In this document: piece by piece, positions 3,381 through 46,718 of the stretch
Layout of the letters: every line of letters starts with the position of its first letter
Position numbering within the stretch: position 1 is the first letter of the stretch
Assembly (NCBI RefSeq): GCF_009914755.1
Contig: NC_060926.1
Length of the DNA: 64,000 nt
DNA from: the human T2T-CHM13v2.0 reference genome, Homo sapiens
Strand: one strand, 5' to 3'
Notes under the pieces: model-generated
What the model saw: the letters and a program-made list of their open reading frames with translations, nothing else
Databases searched by the model: none
Told to the model about the DNA's origin: nothing
Translations under genes and position numbers: made by a program

Positions 3381-3819
3381 AACATCTTGACTGATATAAC
3401 AATATCCTATCTATTTTGTCTTATAGAAATTTCTCTCCTAGTGATCTTTATGAAGAGTTTAACTCAAAGAGAAAGGAGGAAATTTTTTCCTCCAAAGGCC
3501 CAAAGCAATAAAGAAATGATCAAGAAAAATGGGTGAATTTCCTCTGCAAAGTAAGTTCGAATATCACTATGATATCAGGCCACTGGATCTCCCCATGTTC
3601 ATACATTTGTCTTGCCAAGAGACCTAGCCTATAACGAAGCCTTCGCTACCTACCCTACAGGGTTCTAAGGATCAAAAGACATAATGGTTGTTAAAGCTCT
3701 GTATAGACTATAAAATGCCTCGTAAAGGCTGAGTTCCTGAGGAGCCTATGCTTGGTGCTGTTTTTGGTGCTGTTCAAGATCTGTTTCTATTTATACCTCT
3801 GTGCTGCTGAATCTCATTG

Positions 3820-4060
3820 CTGTTTTCATCCCCTGTGTCTCCAAAGAGCTCTTGGTCTTTATTTCTAGCTACTTCCTAAACATCTTCACCTGGATCTTTA
3901 ACAGCACTTAAAACTCAGCATGTCCAAAACTGAATTAATTTCTGTTCTCCACAAAGTCATTCCTCTGCCTGTGTTCCTGGTTCCCAGTAATAGACGTCAC
4001 CATACACCTACTTTCCACAGGTAGAAAACTGAGTCATCTTCAACTCCTTTTTTTCCCTTC
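3820..4060 (+). mobile_element. L2 relic
   Basis: cacttaaaactcagcatgtccaaaactgaatt L2 motif. Confidence 0.6.
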
Positions 4061-5211: not shown

Positions 5212-8200
5212 GGCAAACAGCATTTATCTTGATTAAAAAAAACTTTAAAAAGCGAAAAAAAAGATTCTTCCTACAGAGGTCTCTATTAGCAACGAATACA
5301 GTTCCCGCTTCTCATCCCAGCTTTCATGACCCTCATAATCATGCTGCTTCTTCATATTTGAGCTTCATCTTTCAGTGACTTCCATGGGCACCCTTCATTC
5401 CTAACAACCAAGTACGCTGCACTCCGTGAACACCACTAGGCCTTTCCATTCCATGTCTTTCTCTATTCCCCACACTTAGAACGCTGCCTCGCCCTATCTG
5501 CCCAGACTATGGTCTTCACTTTCCTGCCACCTGTATCCACAGGCAGCTTTCCACTGGGCCTCAAGCCAGAAATGAGCCCTTTCTTGTTCCTGTAAAGTCT
5601 CATAGCTCTTAATTTACCTTGTACTTTCGGGATTTATCATCACTTGCCTTACCCTGTGGTCATCTAGATTCAAAAGTCATGTTTTCTTACATGTTTATCT
5701 TTGCATGTAACACAGTGCCTCCGGTATTATGGATGTAAAATTCTTAGATAAATTGTTAGAGAAATACTTGCTGGGTGAAATACACTTATATACTTATACT
5801 TTGAATATAATATATTTAAAATATACTTATATTTTGAGATCACTTTCACATCTATTACCACAGCACAACAATTACCGGAAGGAGGCAGAACAGATATTAT
5901 TGTCTCTGTAAAACTGGGGCCAGAAAGGTCAAGGAACTTTCCTTACATCACCCTGGAAGCTCAGGCAGATGAACAAACTCACTTCCTGCTTCTGGTGCTT
6001 CACTGGGGCTTTTTCTGCTCAACTCAACTCTCATGGGTCTGAGTCTATCCTGGGCCTTTTCTGGTCCCAAAGCAACTTGCATCACCCTCATTTTCCACTT
6101 CGCCTTGCAGCCCCCACTCCTGTTGGTTTGAAAACACAGCTTCCTGCCGATCTCTCCCCACCCTCTGTGAAATCTGTCTCAGGCACACAGGGAGAAGCAA
6201 GGAGCTAATGTTCAGGCAATGTGCTGCCCTCCTGTGATGAAAGGTGCAATCTCCATCACTCCCTGAGACACAGCATCCCTGCGTCTGTTTTGAAGCAGAC
6301 CTGTGCCTTTGCAGCTGCTTCCCGTGAACAGCAAAGCCATTATCCCGGCCCACTGTTCTCTTCGTCTGACACTCTCTTAAATATGTCATTTTTCTCATTT
6401 TCATTAATAATGCTTTTTTAACACCTGATCAGCCTCACTGTCTGCTCTAGGTTAAGGCCTATTATTCCATTAGAGTTTGACATTTGAAATGCAATGAGGC
6501 ATTCATGCACAGGTAGAGCTAATGGGGAAAATGGCTTGAGTCAGGGCTTTATGTACCAGGCAGTTTGGAAAATGAGAGTGGTCAACAAGAAACAGAAGCC
6601 TGCTTTTGTGCCAGCCACAGAGTTCTGGGTCCAAGACACACTGGGTCCCCTGTGATAGGTTCAGGACACAGATGTGACCTTTTCTGCCACTGGAGGATAT
6701 CAGGCAGGCACGTCTCCCAGATTGTGCATCTAGAAGAACCTGGAGCAGGTGAAAGAAAATTAGGCAATAGACCTAATGACAAGTCGGTGGGCGTAGAGAA
6801 AATTAATTGAACTTTTCTGCCTTTCTCGACTCCTATTCTCCGATGTTCAGGGCAGCCAGTTATTACGGGGACCTCAGAAGATATTTACCGGCCTCTGGTG
6901 CTGCCACGTGCTTGCCTTTGTCAAATGAGTGAGTTGAATGTAACACTCAAGATTAGAGGGGCCAAAGAAGTTGAGAAATTCAGCCAGTGTGTGTCCCAGT
7001 TTCCCTTCCTAAACCTATCAAGTGAAAATAACCGCTTACATTTTGCTTACTTATTTATTCATCATTTACTCAACAAACACTTATTGAAGGCTTTCCGTGT
7101 AGACGCCGGGTATATCCCTGCCCTCACAGAATTTACAACACTTTTACTATTTCCCCACTTTTACTTTCATTCTGACTATAACTCTTCCATGTAAGAAGGG
7201 GAAATGCCATCTTCAGTTTTGAGACGCAGAGTGAATGAAATCTCAGTGGGCATGAAAACGTATGCTTGCAAGAAATACACCTTTCTCTAACTTGTTGTAG
7301 TAAACTTAACTCCAACTCCAAATCTCCATCTCACCAGGCCGGAGGGAATTTCAGTCAGACATCCTGGCAATGGGTCTCCTCCTAAAGATGCGCCAGAATT
7401 GAGAAGCCTTATGTGGTACCAGGAATGGCAGCAGGGACTATTAGTCCATTGTGACTACTGACGCTATCCTCATCTATCAAGCCCATTGTGATCCCTTGAG
7501 ATATGGTGGCCTTCTGTGTCCATGCCACACATGGGGCCCAAGAATCTTTGCTTAGGGTGGGACCCCCGGCGCCTAGATTCTCACCTTCACAGGCTGACTA
7601 CATGGCCATCCCCTCTGAGCTACTGCAGCCCTCTAGGGTGCTGCTCTGAAGCCAGGTGTGGATTCATGATTAAAGTGAGGCACCATAATTGCTGGAAGCC
7701 TCCCTCTCCCCTCTCCCTCCCTTTTCAAGAAAAAAAAAAAAAAAGCAAGTATAATCTTGTTTTTCAGTTTAGTTGTTCCAAACGAAGAAGGAGAAATTGG
7801 CTCCCAGAAGCTTCTATTTTTCACATACTTAAAAACCTCGGAATCTCTGATTCCAAGGCGTGCTAAGGCCCTAGCAACCTGCTTTCAAGGGAGAAGAAAA
7901 AATAGAGAACAAACATTAATTGGCAGTCAAATTAATTATCCTGCCACAGTGATGAAAAATCCAAAATGCCGGAAGAGGTAACATTCATCACCCTGAGCTT
8001 CTCCTCCAATCCTGGCCCCGGCACACACCCCAAATCCAATGGCAAGTGGGGGCTGCCTGCTGCTTGTGGCTGCCTCCCATCCGTCAGTAGATCCAGAGTC
8101 ATGCAATAACATGGAACTGTGGGAAAGCTTCTGTAACTTACATAGATTAGCCACATGAGGAGAGAAGCACATCATCTAGCCATTGTCCCCCAACACCACC

Positions 8201-40500: not shown

Positions 40501-42657
40501 TCTTGGGTCACAGTCTTAGTATAAATTCCATTCTATCAGTGGCTAGCCAATAAGCTATGTATGCAGACACACATGATGCCTAGGAAGCCATGCTTAAAAA
40601 TAAAAATGAGAACTTAAAAAAAAATGAGCAAAAACATCAGTGGCTACACACAGTGGGGGAGACAAGTTTTTCAAATCCCAGGCAATTGTTAAACCAACAG
40701 CAACACAACTTTAGGGGACATGAGAGAGCAGGAAATCAGAATTTATAATTGTTACCACATATTACCTAAAATGTCCAGTTTTCAACAAAAAATTATGAGA
40801 CATACAATGATACGGCCAAGTGCAACCTATACTCAGGGAAAAAAGTAATCAGTAGAAACTGTCTCTGAATATCTCCAGATGTTGGATTTAGTGGACAAAG
40901 ACAGCAAAGCAGCTATTACAAATATGTTAAATGAACAAACGGAAGCATATTTAAGGAATTAAAGTTTTTTTGTGTTCACACACACTAAGGTCTGTATATA
41001 TATAAGAATTCTACAGCTCTTCTGACTTTCCATGCAGTTGGCAGTACCTGACTGAGAGAGGTAAGTTTCCTGGGTATGCTATAATTTACCCAGGACAATT
41101 GCAGTAGACCAGAGATTGGTTCCTTTGCTTCTGTTTTGTTTTGTTTTGCTTTGCTTTTCCTTTTGCAGTGAGACCAGAAATTGGCTTCTTTGCTCGTTTT
41201 ATATATCTCATTGCATCTTATATCAGTACAGTATCAGTAAACACTAGTATAAATAGCAAACTTTCTATGTAGCACACCTGTTAGGTTTCAGTGTGACTTG
41301 CCTTCCTTTCCAGCAGCAGCCTTGCAAATGGTTTTGGTAAAGACATTCTGTGGGCAAATTACCAGTTTTTTCCATTTATTTGCTGTGTGACTTTGAGCAA
41401 GTTTCCTAACCTCTCTGAATTTTCTCATGTATAACACAGGGTTTTTAAAAAACTCTACCTTGTGAAGTTCTCATGTGTTCATTTAATAACTATCTTATGG
41501 AGCACCTACTATGGTCCAGGCATTACATAGGTGCTAGGGAAAGAGGGATGTACAGGACAAATAAGATACCTAGCTTTCATTCTATTGAAGTGGGGGTGGG
41601 GTGGGGGGGTGCAGACAGTAGAGAAGGAAAAAGATAACTAATTCAGTAAGATATTTTAATTGAGTGATGACTGTTATAAAGAAATTAAACTTCCTATTGT
41701 TTAACAATAAAGCAATAAGTAGAAAATCTCAATAAAGAGACAGTTTTTTAAGAACTAAATGAAAATTTAGGAGCTGAAAAGTATAACAATTGAAATAAAA
41801 AACTGACTAGAATAGCTCAGTGGTAGGTTAGTGACTGAAAATAAATCAATAGAAATTATCTAATCTGAAGATCAGAAAAAAAAGATTAAAGAAAAATGAA
41901 CAGAGCTTTCAACACCTGTAGGACAACATCAAGTATATCAGCATACATTTAATGGGAATCTCAGGAAGAAAGGAGAGAAAGAGAAAGGGGCAGAAAAACA
42001 TTTTTAAAAATTTTGTGGGAAATTTTTTTTTAAGAAATGTATCTACACATCTAAGGATCTAAACCAATCTCAAGTAGGATAAATTTAGATGCTTACACCT
42101 ATCTCATCATACTCAAATCATTGAGAGCCAAAAAGAGAGAGAAATAATTCATTTAAATAGAAAGACAAAAATAATTCATCGTGTACAAGGGACCATTAAT
42201 GTGAACTGACTTCTCATCTGAAACAATGAGAGCCAAAAACAGGGGAATAGTCCATATGCTGAAGAAAAGAAAAAAATGTCAGCTGAGGATTCTATACTCA
42301 GCAAAACTATCTCAAAAATGGAGGCAAGATAAAGACATTCCCAAGAAACAAACACAGAAAAGTTAGTGCTAGAAACCTGCCTTACCAGACATTCTAAAGT
42401 TCTTCATCCTGATAGAAAATGACACCAAACAATAACTTAAATCCATAAGAAGAAATGAAGTGCATTGAATATGGTAAATATATGAGTTAACATGAAAGAT
42501 TATTAATATATTTTCCTCATTTCTTTGTTTAAATTCCTTGACAAAATATGTGATTTTTATTCTAAAAAGAATTATAACATTGTATGGAGAGATGTAATAT
42601 ATGTAACAATAACAGTATGAAGTAATGGGGAAAAAATGGAGCTATATTGAAGCAAGG

Positions 42658-42969
42658 TTTTGTTTTGTTTTTCTTTTTTTTTTTTTTTTTTTGAGACAGG
42701 ATCTCATTCTGTCATTCAGGCTGGGGTGCAGTGACACAAAGATGGCTCATTGCAGACTCGGCCTCCTGGGTTCAAGTGATCCTCCTGACTCAGCCTCCTG
42801 TGTAGCTGGGACCACAGGTGTGCACCACCACACCCAGCTAATTTTTAAATTTTTTGTAGTGATGGGATATCACTTTGTTGCCCAGGTTGGTCTCAAATTG
42901 TGGGCTCAAGCAATCGTCCTGCCTCAGCCTTGTGAAGTGCCAAGATTAAAGACATGAGCCACCATACCG
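42658..42969 (-). mobile_element. AluJ abutting the NORAD retrocopy
   Basis: Diverged reverse Alu flanked by aaggtttt. Confidence 0.95.
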
Positions 42970-42984
42970 AAGGTTTTTATTGTA

Positions 42985-45900
42985 TTTTTTTTTTTACAAA
43001 ATATGCTAATTTTACTAAGTACTCTGTCATACACTGGCAACCTCTTTAACATCTAGAGACTAAATGTCACAAAATTAGGACTCATTTGTCCATTATATAC
43101 ACTATATACAGAGCAAAACAAAATGCATGAAACATACAGAAAAATGGTGTCTGAAAATGTCCAATTATGAACACACTAGCATATTACTTTTGGCAATTTC
43201 TTCCCTCCCACCTCCTCTGAACCATTGAACAAGTATAGACAGTACTATACTGCTCACAAAGGTGGCTTCACAATTAAATTTCCAAAAGACAACATTTCCC
43301 ATGAATTTTAGCAAAAAGATATTTACAAAGTGGTATTTTACTACCTCTACATTTAACATACATTGGGCACCTCTAAACATCTAGGTAGACTAGATGTTTC
43401 AAGTAAGGAGTGAATTCATCCACTCCACACAGCAGTCTTGAATAAACTGCAAACATGTAACAACAGTTATAATTTGAAAGAGTCTTCCAAATATGAACAT
43501 TCTGGCCTAGAACCTTTCCTATCTTCATCAACCCAGTGGGCAAGAATGCTCACATTTTCAGAAGACAATCTTTCCTATGACTTTTAAAACAAAATGTACA
43601 AAATATATTAGTTTACTAACTATTTTGGACATACACTGGCAACCTCTTTAACATCTACAAGAACTGGATTTGTAAATTAGGTTTCATTTGTCCTATATGT
43701 ACACTATAGACACAGGTAAGTAAAGCAAGTCAGGGACACCCACCCCGCTGATGATGCTGGGTTCCTGCGCCTTGGGAGGAGGCTCTGCATGAGGCAGTGT
43801 CCCCAGAGTCTGCCCCACATCAGGGTGACTGCTGAGCCTGATGCTTCCAGTGGTCAAGCCTAGGGTCCCCAATCCACTCCCAGAGGCACCACATGGAGTA
43901 GGGCTATGAGCCAAGTGAGGAGGAGCCCAGGACCACCACTGAGCACCAGGGCCATCAAAAGAACTTGTGGCGATGTCACCCCTGCCCTGGATGCCAGCCC
44001 ACGGCCAGAAAGGACCTGGAGCCCCTGCCCCAGGCTGCAAGGAGGCATGGCCAGGGCTGCACACTCCACGAAGCCTACAGGAGCCAGGGACAAGCAGAAG
44101 CCCTGGCCCTTCAGAGTTGGCAGGGCAGGAGCTCCCTAGGTGCAGCTGCAGCCAACCTGACATGGCTGTGGACCCAGGCATCTCTGCACTCTCAGGGCCC
44201 AGCAAGCACCCCCTTCCCCCTGCAGGCTCAAGTGTGCCTGCTCCTGCTGCCTGGCTTCTCCTCATTGTTGGCACCCACTCCAATCTTGGAGCAAGGGCAG
44301 GGCCAAGCCCAGGCACTGTCACAGCCTGGCTGGGGGTGCACACACTCAGGGCAGTACTGACATACAAGCCTGCTGCCACCTCAGCCCCCTCCAGACTTTG
44401 GTGCCCACAAGCATGGGAGGGAGGCCAAGGGGACACTGAGGACAGCCCAGCACTGGCCTGCAGGTGCCCCTTGGCATGAACAGCCTGGGCACCATGAACA
44501 GCAGCAGGAGGCAGACAGGCTCCTGGGCAGAAGGGGGAGGGTCCCCAGTGAAGCCCAGCTTTCAAGCCGGAGAGGGCCTGAAGCCTGGGGGCTGGGCCAC
44601 TGGTCCCACAGCCCAGAGGGGGAACTTGTGGTGCTTTTTTCTGGGCCCATCCATGGTCACCCATAAGCCAATCAGCACACACTTCCTCTCCTCTGTGGCC
44701 CATAAAAACCCCAGACTCAGCCAGACTCAAACAGAGGACAGAGAGACGATGGGGAGGTGATGGGATGACCAGCTGCAAAGAGGAACCACCCTTTCTGCTG
44801 AGAGCTGGACATTCATCAGGACAACCTGCCTAGCAGAGAGGAACTACCCTCTCTGCTGACAGCTGAAGAGATGATGGGATGACCAGCTGCAGAAAGGAGC
44901 TGCCCCTTCTGCTGAGAGCTGAACACTCTTTAGGACACCCTGGCTATGGAGAGGAGCTGCCTACTGCAGGTTTCCTCTGAGCTGTTCTATTGCTCAATAA
45001 AGCTCCTCTTCATCTTGCTCACCCTCCTCTTATCTGCACACCTCATTCTTTCTGGTCGCAGGACAAGAACTTGGGACCTCCTGAATGGTAAGGCTAAAAG
45101 AGCTATAACAAAAACAGAGCTGAAATATGCCCCTTGCTCACCACATTGTGGGTAAAGAGAAGGAGAGAAGAGCTGTGGCCCTTCAGGGAGCCCAGACCTG
45201 GGAGTTCCCCAAGCCAGGGCTGTGACTCCCTCTTTGGGACCTGTGGTTCCTGGCATCTCCAATCTTCTGGGCACTACCACATTCCCCAGTGCCAGCCAGG
45301 GAAGCAGCTTGTAGTGCACCTGGTCCAGCCACAGCCTCTCAGAGAACCAGCACCCAGGCCAGCATCTGGAGCCGCCCACCCTGTGGCAGCAGTGGGTGTG
45401 TCTGTGTGACCCCACACTCACTCACACACCCCTCACCACTCAATGACTGACCTGCAGTCTCCCTTGGAGGCATGAGATGCAGGCTGATAGCATGCAGCCT
45501 GCTAGTCCAAGTGGGCGGAACAAGCCCAGTGGGCCCAAGCAAAACTCAGGCAAAGGCACAACTAGCCACAGAGTTTCCCAGCCAGAAAAGCGACACCCCA
45601 AAGATCTCATAACAACAGATCTCATCCATTGAAACACAGCAGTCACCTGGGACCCAGATCTGCACAGCTCCATGGCCTAAAGAGGTGACCAAACCTGCCT
45701 GTGTCCACAGACCTCCTTCCCAGGCCCTCCACACCCTAATGGCATTTGCCGCATTTGGGTGGTCACCATGCTTCCCAGCCTGCCATTCCCACTGACTTCA
45801 AAAAATGCTGCATCCTGGCAGCTCAATGGGGGTTTCATGTAGGCCAAGCAGGGTTGAGCTGGGATACCCAGCAGTGGCCAGTGGGGTCCAGGCTTGGAGA

Positions 45901-46121
45901 GGCCACCACCATTAGTCACCAAGGTGAGGTAGGGAAGAGAGGTTCACCACTGCTTCAAGGCCTGGGCCTGGCCAATGGGTAGCCACAGCAAAGGCCCCGG
46001 GTGTCTGCAGGGCAGAGGGTGCAGCTTGTCCTGGGCCCCCTCAGCTCACCTGCTACCCAGAGGGCCCTGGAGGAGCACGCTGTGCTCTGCATCTCACCAT
46101 GCTCTCTGCTAGACTGGAGCT
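42985..46121 (-). pseudogene. Processed copy of lncRNA NORAD (LINC00657) 5' ~1.5 kb, interrupted by a MER52 LTR
   Basis: Minus strand starts agctccagtctagcagagagc..gctcctccagggccctc and contains gaacctctcttccctacctcaccttggtgactaatgg, matching the recalled NORAD 5' end with CpG decay; 3' part has ~300-nt repeat units with TGTANATA elements; T11 tail at 42985; TSD aaggtttttatt at 42970 and 46123. Confidence 0.85.
43966..45614 (+). mobile_element. MER52-family ERV1 solo LTR
   Basis: TG..CA ends; ccagccagaaaagcgacaccccaaagatctcataaca 3' end; CCAAT 44668, cataaaa 44701, AATAAA 44996; ~58-bp internal repeats 44760-44960; TSD not resolved. Confidence 0.85.
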
Positions 46122-46486
46122 CAAGGTTTTTATTTTTTACCAAAATTAAGTCAGTATTATTCTAAAGTCGATAGTGAAGAATTAGAAAGTATATTGTAAT
46201 TCCTAGAGCAACTACTAAGAAAATATATATATATGTATATGACTACATATATGCATCCATGTTAAATAAATCTACCGTGAATCTAATTGGCACACTAAAT
46301 TACTGAACATAAAAGACAGCTGTAAACAGGAACAGAAAAACAAAAAATACATTAGACACAGAAAACAAAGAAAAATGTCAAATGTAAATCTGATCATATT
46401 AATAATTACACTAAAAAAGAATGTACTAAGTTATTTAATTAAAAGGCAAAAATTGCCTGACTGATTAAAAAAGCAAGAAGCAACTA

Positions 46487-46718
46487 TAAGTTGAGCATGC
46501 CCTATCTGAAATGCTGGGGCCAGAAGTGTTTCGGATTTCTGATTTTTTCCGATTTGGGGATATTTGCACTATTTACCAGTTGAGCGTCCCAAATGAAAAA
46601 TTAGAAATAAAAAATACTCCAATGAGCATTTCCTTTAAGCATCATGTTTGCACTCAAATAGTTTCAGATTTTAGAGCATTATGGATTTCAGATTTTCACA
46701 TTTGGGATGCTCAACCTG
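46487..46718. mobile_element. Tigger4/MER46 MITE
   Basis: TIRs gttgagcat..atgctcaacctg followed by TA. Confidence 0.75.

What the first reader, a model, noticed from the sequence alone, without database searches (positions are those of the whole stretch)
42996..43720. Intact Pumilio response elements and NORAD-type repeat units: a potential mini PUM decoy
Seen on the minus strand: perfect TGTANATA at 43094-43101, 43103-43110, 43320-43327 and 43696-43703, plus one-mismatch sites at 43234 and 43705. Three ~300-nt-spaced units share ggca(a)cctct..aacatcta (43036, 43366, 43638), one with a catctag/ctagatg hairpin stem. Known: NORAD sequesters PUM1/PUM2 through clustered UGUANAUA elements. Inference: any minus-strand transcript through here, including a host pre-mRNA, would carry a multivalent PUM-binding module.
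Basis: partly seen in the sequence, partly recalled or inferred. Interest (0 to 1): 0.7.

Follow-up and report, generated by a model that had tools for sequence, protein, structure and literature searches.

The report
Dead NORAD retrocopy with short tail
This is a broken genomic copy of the human NORAD RNA, likely pasted in by reverse transcription and likely silent; its Pumilio-binding sites are inherited and decay at the background rate, and its end point, shared with other copies, suggests that NORAD once made a shorter form.

Summary
The motifs are real: four perfect minus-strand PREs, 0 of 20,000 shuffles reach four. It starts at NORAD's 5' end, ends at NORAD nt 2148 in an 11-A run, and lies between 12-nt target-site duplications. 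A 1.9-kb LTR-like repeat splits it and NORAD nt ~535-1424 are missing. No sign of selection: 4 of 6 inferred ancestral PREs survive (4.07 expected), 85 of 94 predicted pairs survive (87.7 expected), and the 5' CpG island is erased (1 of 48 CpGs kept; HCG11 keeps 43 of 56). RefSeq lists no transcript here. Verdict: most likely a silent NORAD pseudogene, a known kind; a working decoy is unlikely (about 4%). By-product: three independent copies end at NORAD nt 2148-2150, 16-18 nt after AGTAAA, and three at nt ~2718-2720 after ATTAAA, which points to proximal poly(A) sites of NORAD not found in my searches. Expression and CLIP could not be tested.

The parts
46123..46134 (-). 5' target-site duplication of the retrocopy (12 nt exact, A-rich; preceded by further A's, as at an L1 endonuclease site)
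45617..46121 (-). NORAD 5' module remnant, NORAD nt ~1-534; CpG island decayed (1 of 48 aligned CpGs kept, 39 changed to TG/CA/TA; CpG o/e 0.07)
   Evidence: (69% identity over 529 columns)
43729..45613 (+). Multi-copy GC-rich LTR-like repeat that splits the retrocopy; TATA-like site at 44701 and AATAAA at 44996 on the plus strand; CpG o/e 0.07; 5' end likely truncated. Family label MER52-like is recalled, from no call
   Evidence: (2215 first-look candidates, 40 scored; best copies 72-78% identical)
42995..43728 (-). NORAD nt 1425-2148: repeat units 3, 4 and the first part of 5
   Evidence: 660 of 740 identical; published unit-4 core matches the middle unit's NORAD counterpart
43705..43712 (-). 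Decayed PRE (intact in NORAD and in the majority of copies)
43696..43703 (-). Intact PRE, unit 3
43320..43327 (-). Intact PRE in the 3' part of unit 4
43103..43110 (-). Intact PRE, unit 5
43094..43101 (-). Intact PRE, unit 5; majority state of the copies, lost in present-day human NORAD
43011..43016 (-). AGTAAA, a variant poly(A) hexamer 16 nt before the 3' end; present in NORAD (nt 2127-2132)
42985..42995 (-). 11-A run that is not in NORAD beyond its first A (1 A in NORAD's next 10 nt): remnant poly(A) tail
42970..42981 (-). 3' target-site duplication of the retrocopy; also the 5' flank of the Alu
42663..42969 (-). Old Alu with A-tail, second most diverged of 53 Alus compared (18% at non-CpG sites from their majority); likely inserted before the NORAD copy
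   Evidence: (SRP-family match 42691-42838)
42654..42661 (-). Third copy of the target-site core, closing the Alu

Best explanation
The locus is a broken copy of NORAD with a poly(A) remnant and target-site duplications, likely made by L1 reverse transcription of a short, proximally polyadenylated NORAD RNA, and it is likely silent, its four Pumilio sites being inherited and unselected. Inferred order: an Alu inserted at an A-rich site; a NORAD RNA running from the 5' end to nt 2148 was copied into the same site; an LTR-like element inserted at about nt 537; one deletion removed that element's 5' end with NORAD nt ~535-1424; germline methylation erased the CpG island. Shown: homology, ends, tail, duplications, background-rate decay. 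Inferred: L1 mechanism, order of events, silence, cleavage-and-polyadenylation as the source of the 3' end.
For: 89% identity to NORAD nt 1425-2148 and 69% to nt ~1-517. 12-nt exact duplication on both sides and an A-run. Five other copies start within 2 nt of the same 5' position. PREs: 4 of 6 intact, 4.07 expected, P(>=4)=0.70; substitutions 3 of 41 in PRE positions against 37 of 684 elsewhere, Fisher p=0.49; over 19 copies 61 of 108 intact, 64.6 expected. Pairs: 85 of 94 kept against 87.7 in permutations, P=0.92. CpG: 1 of 48 kept, against 37 of 54 (chr7 copy), 27 of 49 (chr9 copy) and 43 of 56 (HCG11) in copies of similar divergence. Star-like tree, end branch 0.056, no supported clade holding the window copy. 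NORAD pseudogenes are described as unexpressed except HCG11, a remark made of the four long ones (PMC4947167, passage). No RefSeq gene over the locus (hub table).
Against: The neutrality tests have little power: six sites cannot show weak or recent selection, and HCG11, which is expressed, also fails to depart from background (6 of 6, P=0.20). No expression, CLIP or primate orthologue data were available. The retained parts (5' module, units 3-4) resemble mini-NORAD3/4, which works when over-expressed (PMC7617650, results); its boundaries were not found in the supplement, which was cut when stored. The 3' duplication contains an AATAAA that could end a passing minus-strand transcript. The ancestral state is a majority of copies of different ages, not a dated reconstruction.
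Confidence: 0.9

Rival explanations
1. Functional mini PUM decoy: a minus-strand transcript (read-through or antisense from the LTR-like element) is exported and sequesters PUM1/2 through four PREs.
For: Four intact PREs; unit-4 and unit-5 hairpins keep all pairs (10 of 10, 9 of 9); mini-NORAD3/4 de-represses a reporter, and four PREs can suffice for NORAD-PUM bodies in a specific context (PMC7617650, results and discussion); AGTAAA and AATAAA at the 3' end.
Against: Background-rate loss of PREs and pairs; both unit-3 hairpins damaged (3 of 5, 5 of 8 pairs); CpG island erased; the LTR-like element points away from the PREs; the 5' module, needed for activity, is decayed and cut off; even NORAD and HCG11 each hold under 1% of expressed PREs in HEK293 (PMC5758885, passage); no RefSeq transcript.
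Confidence: 0.04
2. Passive passenger: the block lies in an intron or read-through tail of a minus-strand host transcript and binds PUM now and then without regulatory effect.
For: The nearest downstream-numbered genes (LOC105374600, ASB3, GPR75-ASB3) are on the minus strand and end 24 kb and 114 kb from the copy (hub table). I recall long ASB3 models in GENCODE reaching this region; this is from memory and unchecked.
Against: No RefSeq model covers it; intronic RNA is nuclear and short-lived. Compatible with the best explanation, as it claims no function.
Confidence: 0.25
3. The 3' end at nt 2148 comes not from cleavage and polyadenylation but from adenylated decay fragments or internal priming.
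For: AGTAAA is a weak hexamer; one internal end (nt 2592) has no hexamer among the 12 scanned; NORAD is described with a single major poly(A) site (PMC4947167, passage); the tails are short, and in two copies hardly separable from the A-rich duplication.
Against: Three copies with unrelated flanks end within 3 nt (uniform chance 4.5e-5 for 3 of 7); NORAD and the 14 copies that read through have no A-tract there; the paralogous position two units on (nt 2757, AGTAAA 15 nt before) is used by a fourth copy; 8 of 9 internal ends have a hexamer 13-21 nt upstream.
Confidence: 0.2
4. DNA-level (segmental) duplication of NORAD or of another copy.
For: NORAD has no introns, so intron loss cannot be used; the chr7 copy is as close as NORAD (91% against 89%) and ends at the same base.
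Against: Homology stops at the transcript's 5' end and at the tail; no NORAD flank is in the window apart from Alus; the chr7 copy has its own duplication and shares only 5 of the window's 42 differences (range 0-9 over 19 rows).
Confidence: 0.01

Closest known systems
NORAD (LINC00657), chr20
   Same: Parent. 89% identity over nt 1425-2148; same unit layout, PRE spacing and hairpins; same 5' start. Identified by position, 15 PREs, a 5.34-kb span and the published unit-4 core (PMC7976429 passages).
   Different: 4 PREs against 15; about 1.25 kb of 5.3 kb kept, in two pieces; CpG island lost; ends at nt 2148; no known expression.
HCG11 (chr6p22), the expressed NORAD copy
   Same: Also starts at NORAD's 5' end with tail and duplication; similar order of divergence (end branch 0.031 against 0.056).
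   Different: HCG11 is full length, holds 16 PREs, keeps 43 of 56 CpGs and is expressed at about 1/20 of NORAD (PMC4947167).
Unexpressed NORAD pseudogenes (PMC4947167; PMC6407921)
   Same: Same origin and background-rate decay; 18 further copies analysed here.
   Different: Those papers mention four long copies or a high number, in the passages read, and not this locus; 3' ends are not discussed there.
mini-NORAD3/4 (engineered; PMC7617650)
   Same: 5' module plus units 3-4 is about what survives here.
   Different: The construct is intact, contiguous and plasmid-driven; here the 5' module is decayed and separated by 1.9 kb of repeat.

Membership tests
Processed pseudogene (L1-mediated retrocopy) | Homology confined to the parent transcript | tested here: met
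   Starts at the 5' position shared by five other copies; no NORAD flank
Processed pseudogene (L1-mediated retrocopy) | Untemplated 3' poly(A) | tested here: met
   11-A run; NORAD has 1 A in the next 10 nt
Processed pseudogene (L1-mediated retrocopy) | Target-site duplication at an A-rich site | tested here: met
   12 nt exact at 42970 and 46123
Processed pseudogene (L1-mediated retrocopy) | Loss of introns | not testable with these tools
   The parent is unspliced (PMC4947167)
Processed pseudogene (L1-mediated retrocopy) | Neutral decay | tested here: met
   PREs, pairs and CpGs; low power for the PREs
NORAD-type PUM decoy lncRNA | Clustered canonical PREs | tested here: met
   4 in 610 nt
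NORAD-type PUM decoy lncRNA | Repeat units with hairpins | tested here: inconclusive
   Units 4 and 5 keep their long hairpin, unit 3's hairpins are damaged; predicted structure only
NORAD-type PUM decoy lncRNA | Intact 5' CpG-island module joined to the PRE region | tested here: not met
   1 of 48 CpGs kept; 1.9-kb insertion and ~890-nt deletion
NORAD-type PUM decoy lncRNA | Purifying selection on PREs | tested here: not met
   4 of 6 against 4.07 expected; paralogue comparison only, no primate orthologues
NORAD-type PUM decoy lncRNA | Abundant cytoplasmic transcript bound by PUM1/2 | not testable with these tools
   No RNA-seq or CLIP access; no RefSeq model
Proximal poly(A) site of NORAD | Recurrent A-tailed end 10-30 nt after a poly(A) hexamer, no genomic A-tract | tested here: met
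   3 copies at nt 2148-2150, 3 at nt ~2718-2720
Proximal poly(A) site of NORAD | Use in present-day RNA | not testable with these tools
   Needs 3'-end or long-read data

The most novel reading that the evidence does not exclude
This copy is one of several fossils of short NORAD isoforms: NORAD is cleaved at proximal poly(A) sites near nt 2148 and 2719 in the germ line, giving natural mini-NORADs (5' module plus 7 or 10 PREs, no 3' module), and these sites are still used in humans, so that poly(A) site choice tunes Pumilio buffering.
Probability: 0.35. Interest if true: 0.5.

Novelty: new member of a known kind. Interest (0 to 1): 0.25.

Why it matters
The locus itself is ordinary: one more NORAD pseudogene, absent from the RefSeq table, and a mapping hazard for NORAD RNA-seq and CLIP reads (identical runs of up to 64 nt with NORAD). 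The by-product matters more. NORAD is described with one major poly(A) site, and removing its 3' part strengthened Pumilio de-repression in a reporter assay (PMC7617650). If the short forms recorded by 9 of 16 copies with resolved ends are still made, they give exact coordinates for a testable way of tuning NORAD. The CpG survey also points to a better decoy candidate than this locus, the chr7 copy.

Tried and rejected
Rfam scan of 41,500-46,500 at E<=1: five matches, all below gathering score, four from the Alu; no family for the units. Bacterial promoter/terminator scan: not applicable to human DNA, ignored. The gap as a spliced-out intron: rejected as unlikely, because a repeat fills the junction and related copies of the repeat run on 5' of the point where the window's copy stops (one copy seen); no NORAD remnant inside the repeat or elsewhere in the window. 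Selection on PREs or on structure: not found (NORAD's own P=0.01 there is circular, since the structure came from it). Descent from the chr7 copy or segmental duplication: rejected. A fourth end at nt 2148 in the chr12:75.9 Mb copy: not found, it is cut by Alus at nt 2135. Paper searches for NORAD short isoforms or proximal poly(A) sites and for this locus (top 10-30 listings each) showed none. Lee et al. 2016 (Cell) was not held, so its account of pseudogenes and transcript ends is unread.

Full report
Observation. The four perfect minus-strand PREs, the two one-mismatch sites and the three unit motifs are at the stated places. Over the whole window 22 matches were found against 9.4 expected, many in TA-rich stretches; locally 4 were seen against 0.20 expected, and 0 of 20,000 shuffles reached 4.

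Identity. A search of the own genome with 42,960-43,760 gave 112 matches (40 of 52 candidates scored), among them chr20:37,769,792-37,770,515 at 89%. That locus is NORAD: it is on chr20, holds 15 PREs, spans about 5.34 kb from a CpG island to an AATAAA at nt 5313, and contains the published unit-4 core (supplement of PMC8192489); PMC7976429 (passages) gives 5,339 nt and at least 15 PREs. My numbering sets nt 1 at chr20:37,771,939. The window block is nt 1425-2148: units 3, 4 and the start of 5. A second piece, 45,617-46,121, matches nt ~1-534 at 69%.

Anatomy, on the minus strand: 12-nt duplication (46,134-46,123); NORAD 5' piece; 1,885-nt repeat (45,613-43,729); NORAD nt 1425-2148; 11 A's; the same 12 nt (42,981-42,970); an Alu; a third, shorter copy of the site (42,661-42,654). 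The chr7, chr12, chr5, chrX and chr6 (HCG11) copies begin within 2 nt of the same base, so the copy is complete at its 5' end. The middle repeat has 2215 first-look candidates in the genome, the best at 72-78%, a plus-strand TATA-like site and AATAAA, and ends in CA; I recall it as MER52-like, a label from no call. One other copy runs on as GC-rich sequence for about 170 nt beyond the window's left junction, so one deletion probably took the element's 5' end and NORAD nt ~535-1424 (inferred). The Alu is 18% from the majority of 53 Alus at non-CpG sites, second highest (part of this is subfamily difference), while the NORAD block is 5.4% from the majority of copies: the Alu likely came first and the site was reused. 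With a recalled primate neutral rate, 5.5% is about 35-45 million years.

Selection. I aligned nt 1425-2148 from NORAD, the window and 18 other loci. The majority state has six PREs. The window keeps 4 (4.07 expected from its background rate of 37 of 684; P=0.70); PRE positions changed at 3 of 41 (Fisher p=0.49). Over all 19 copies 61 of 108 survive, 64.6 expected. One surviving PRE (43094) is lost in human NORAD; two (43705 and the unit-4 site) are lost here. Of 94 confidently predicted NORAD pairs 85 survive, 87.7 in permutations. These tests are weak: HCG11 does not depart from background either (6 of 6, P=0.20). The CpG test discriminates better: 1 of 48 kept here, the lowest share among the 14 copies with an aligned 5' piece, against 43 of 56 in HCG11, 37 of 54 at chr7 and 27 of 49 at chr9. 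That indicates long germline methylation and loss of the internal island (inference).

Mechanism. A decoy needs abundance and cytoplasmic location: about 70 NORAD molecules with 17 sites per cell (PMC4947167, passages). In PMC7617650 (two of three parts of the results, discussion, plasmid methods) the 5' module was needed, and 5' module plus units 7+8 or 3+4 sufficed on over-expression; four PREs suffice for condensates only in a specific context (its citation). PMC5758885 (passage) found NORAD and HCG11 each under 1% of expressed PREs in HEK293. An intronic passage through a minus-strand host is possible and would not make a decoy.

The 3' end. Of 21 copies looked at (window, 18 fetched loci, two short stretches), 7 reach the distal site (nt 5331-5342), 5 are unresolved (cut by insertions, deletions or the fetched range) and 9 end internally in an A-run: nt 2148 (window), 2148 (chr7:23.34 Mb), 2150 (chr9:105.95 Mb), 2592, 2718, ~2719, ~2720, 2757 and 4242. 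The first three have unrelated flanks; the window and chr7 copies have their own duplications, none was found for the chr9 copy; they form no clade. NORAD has AGTAAA 16 nt before nt 2148, a U/G-rich stretch after it and no A-tract, nor do the 14 copies that read through. Uniform chance of 3 of 7 ends within 3 nt is 4.5e-5. The second triplet follows ATTAAA at nt 2700, but two of its three members were fetched because their matches stopped there, so no probability applies to it. Nt 2757 is the paralogous position of nt 2148. The ends at 2592 and 4242 have short tails merging with their duplications, and 2592 has no hexamer. The copies were found with a query from nt 1425-2148, which biases the census, and further copies listed were not examined. 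PMC4947167 describes a single major poly(A) site; eight searches (listings only) and term look-ups in PMC6407921, PMC10854850 and PMC8192489 (passages) showed no short isoform, but poly(A) databases and Lee et al. 2016 were not available and may list these sites.

Comparison and verdict. It is a processed NORAD pseudogene, a class noted in PMC4947167 and PMC6407921 (passages); it meets the testable features of a retrocopy and fails two features of a NORAD-type decoy. New member of a known kind; interest 0.25, most of it from the shared 3' ends.

Noticed in passing
L032:3462-5574 (chr7:23,342,461-23,344,573, +): Uninterrupted NORAD copy of nt 2-2148 with tail and duplication, CpG o/e 0.89 (37 of 54 CpGs kept) and 4 PREs: a much better candidate for an expressed natural mini-NORAD than the window locus.
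   Followed up: partly
L035:2825-5391 on the minus strand (chr5:25.29 Mb): Youngest copy (96.6% to NORAD), nt 1-2592, 53 of 56 CpGs kept, 7 PREs; its match to NORAD nt 2150-2592 is shorter than collinear, suggesting an internal gap not examined.
   Followed up: partly
L034 (chr12:29.26 Mb), L036 (chrX:79.43 Mb): Near-full-length copies with 16 and 13 PREs and most 5' CpGs kept (48 of 57, 39 of 57).
   Followed up: partly
L031, NORAD nt ~1718 and ~2047: Human NORAD lacks two PREs that are the majority state among its copies (unit 4 and the second site of unit 5), and has two small deletions against older copies: PRE turnover in the parent.
   Followed up: partly
L038, L040, L041, L043 near NORAD nt 2526: Older copies carry a stretch of about 40 nt after nt 2526 that present-day NORAD lacks.
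   Followed up: no
L038, L045, L047, L049, L050 at NORAD nt ~3660-3946: Older copies lack the Alu that lies inside present-day NORAD, which dates them before that insertion.
   Followed up: no
window 42654-46134: One A-rich target site appears three times: it was used by an Alu and by the NORAD copy in turn.
   Followed up: yes
L040 and L049 (chr6:28.48 and 29.04 Mb), with further matches at chr6:28.91 Mb and HCG11 at 26.39 Mb: Several NORAD copies lie within 3 Mb on 6p22; they do not form a clade in the tree.
   Followed up: partly
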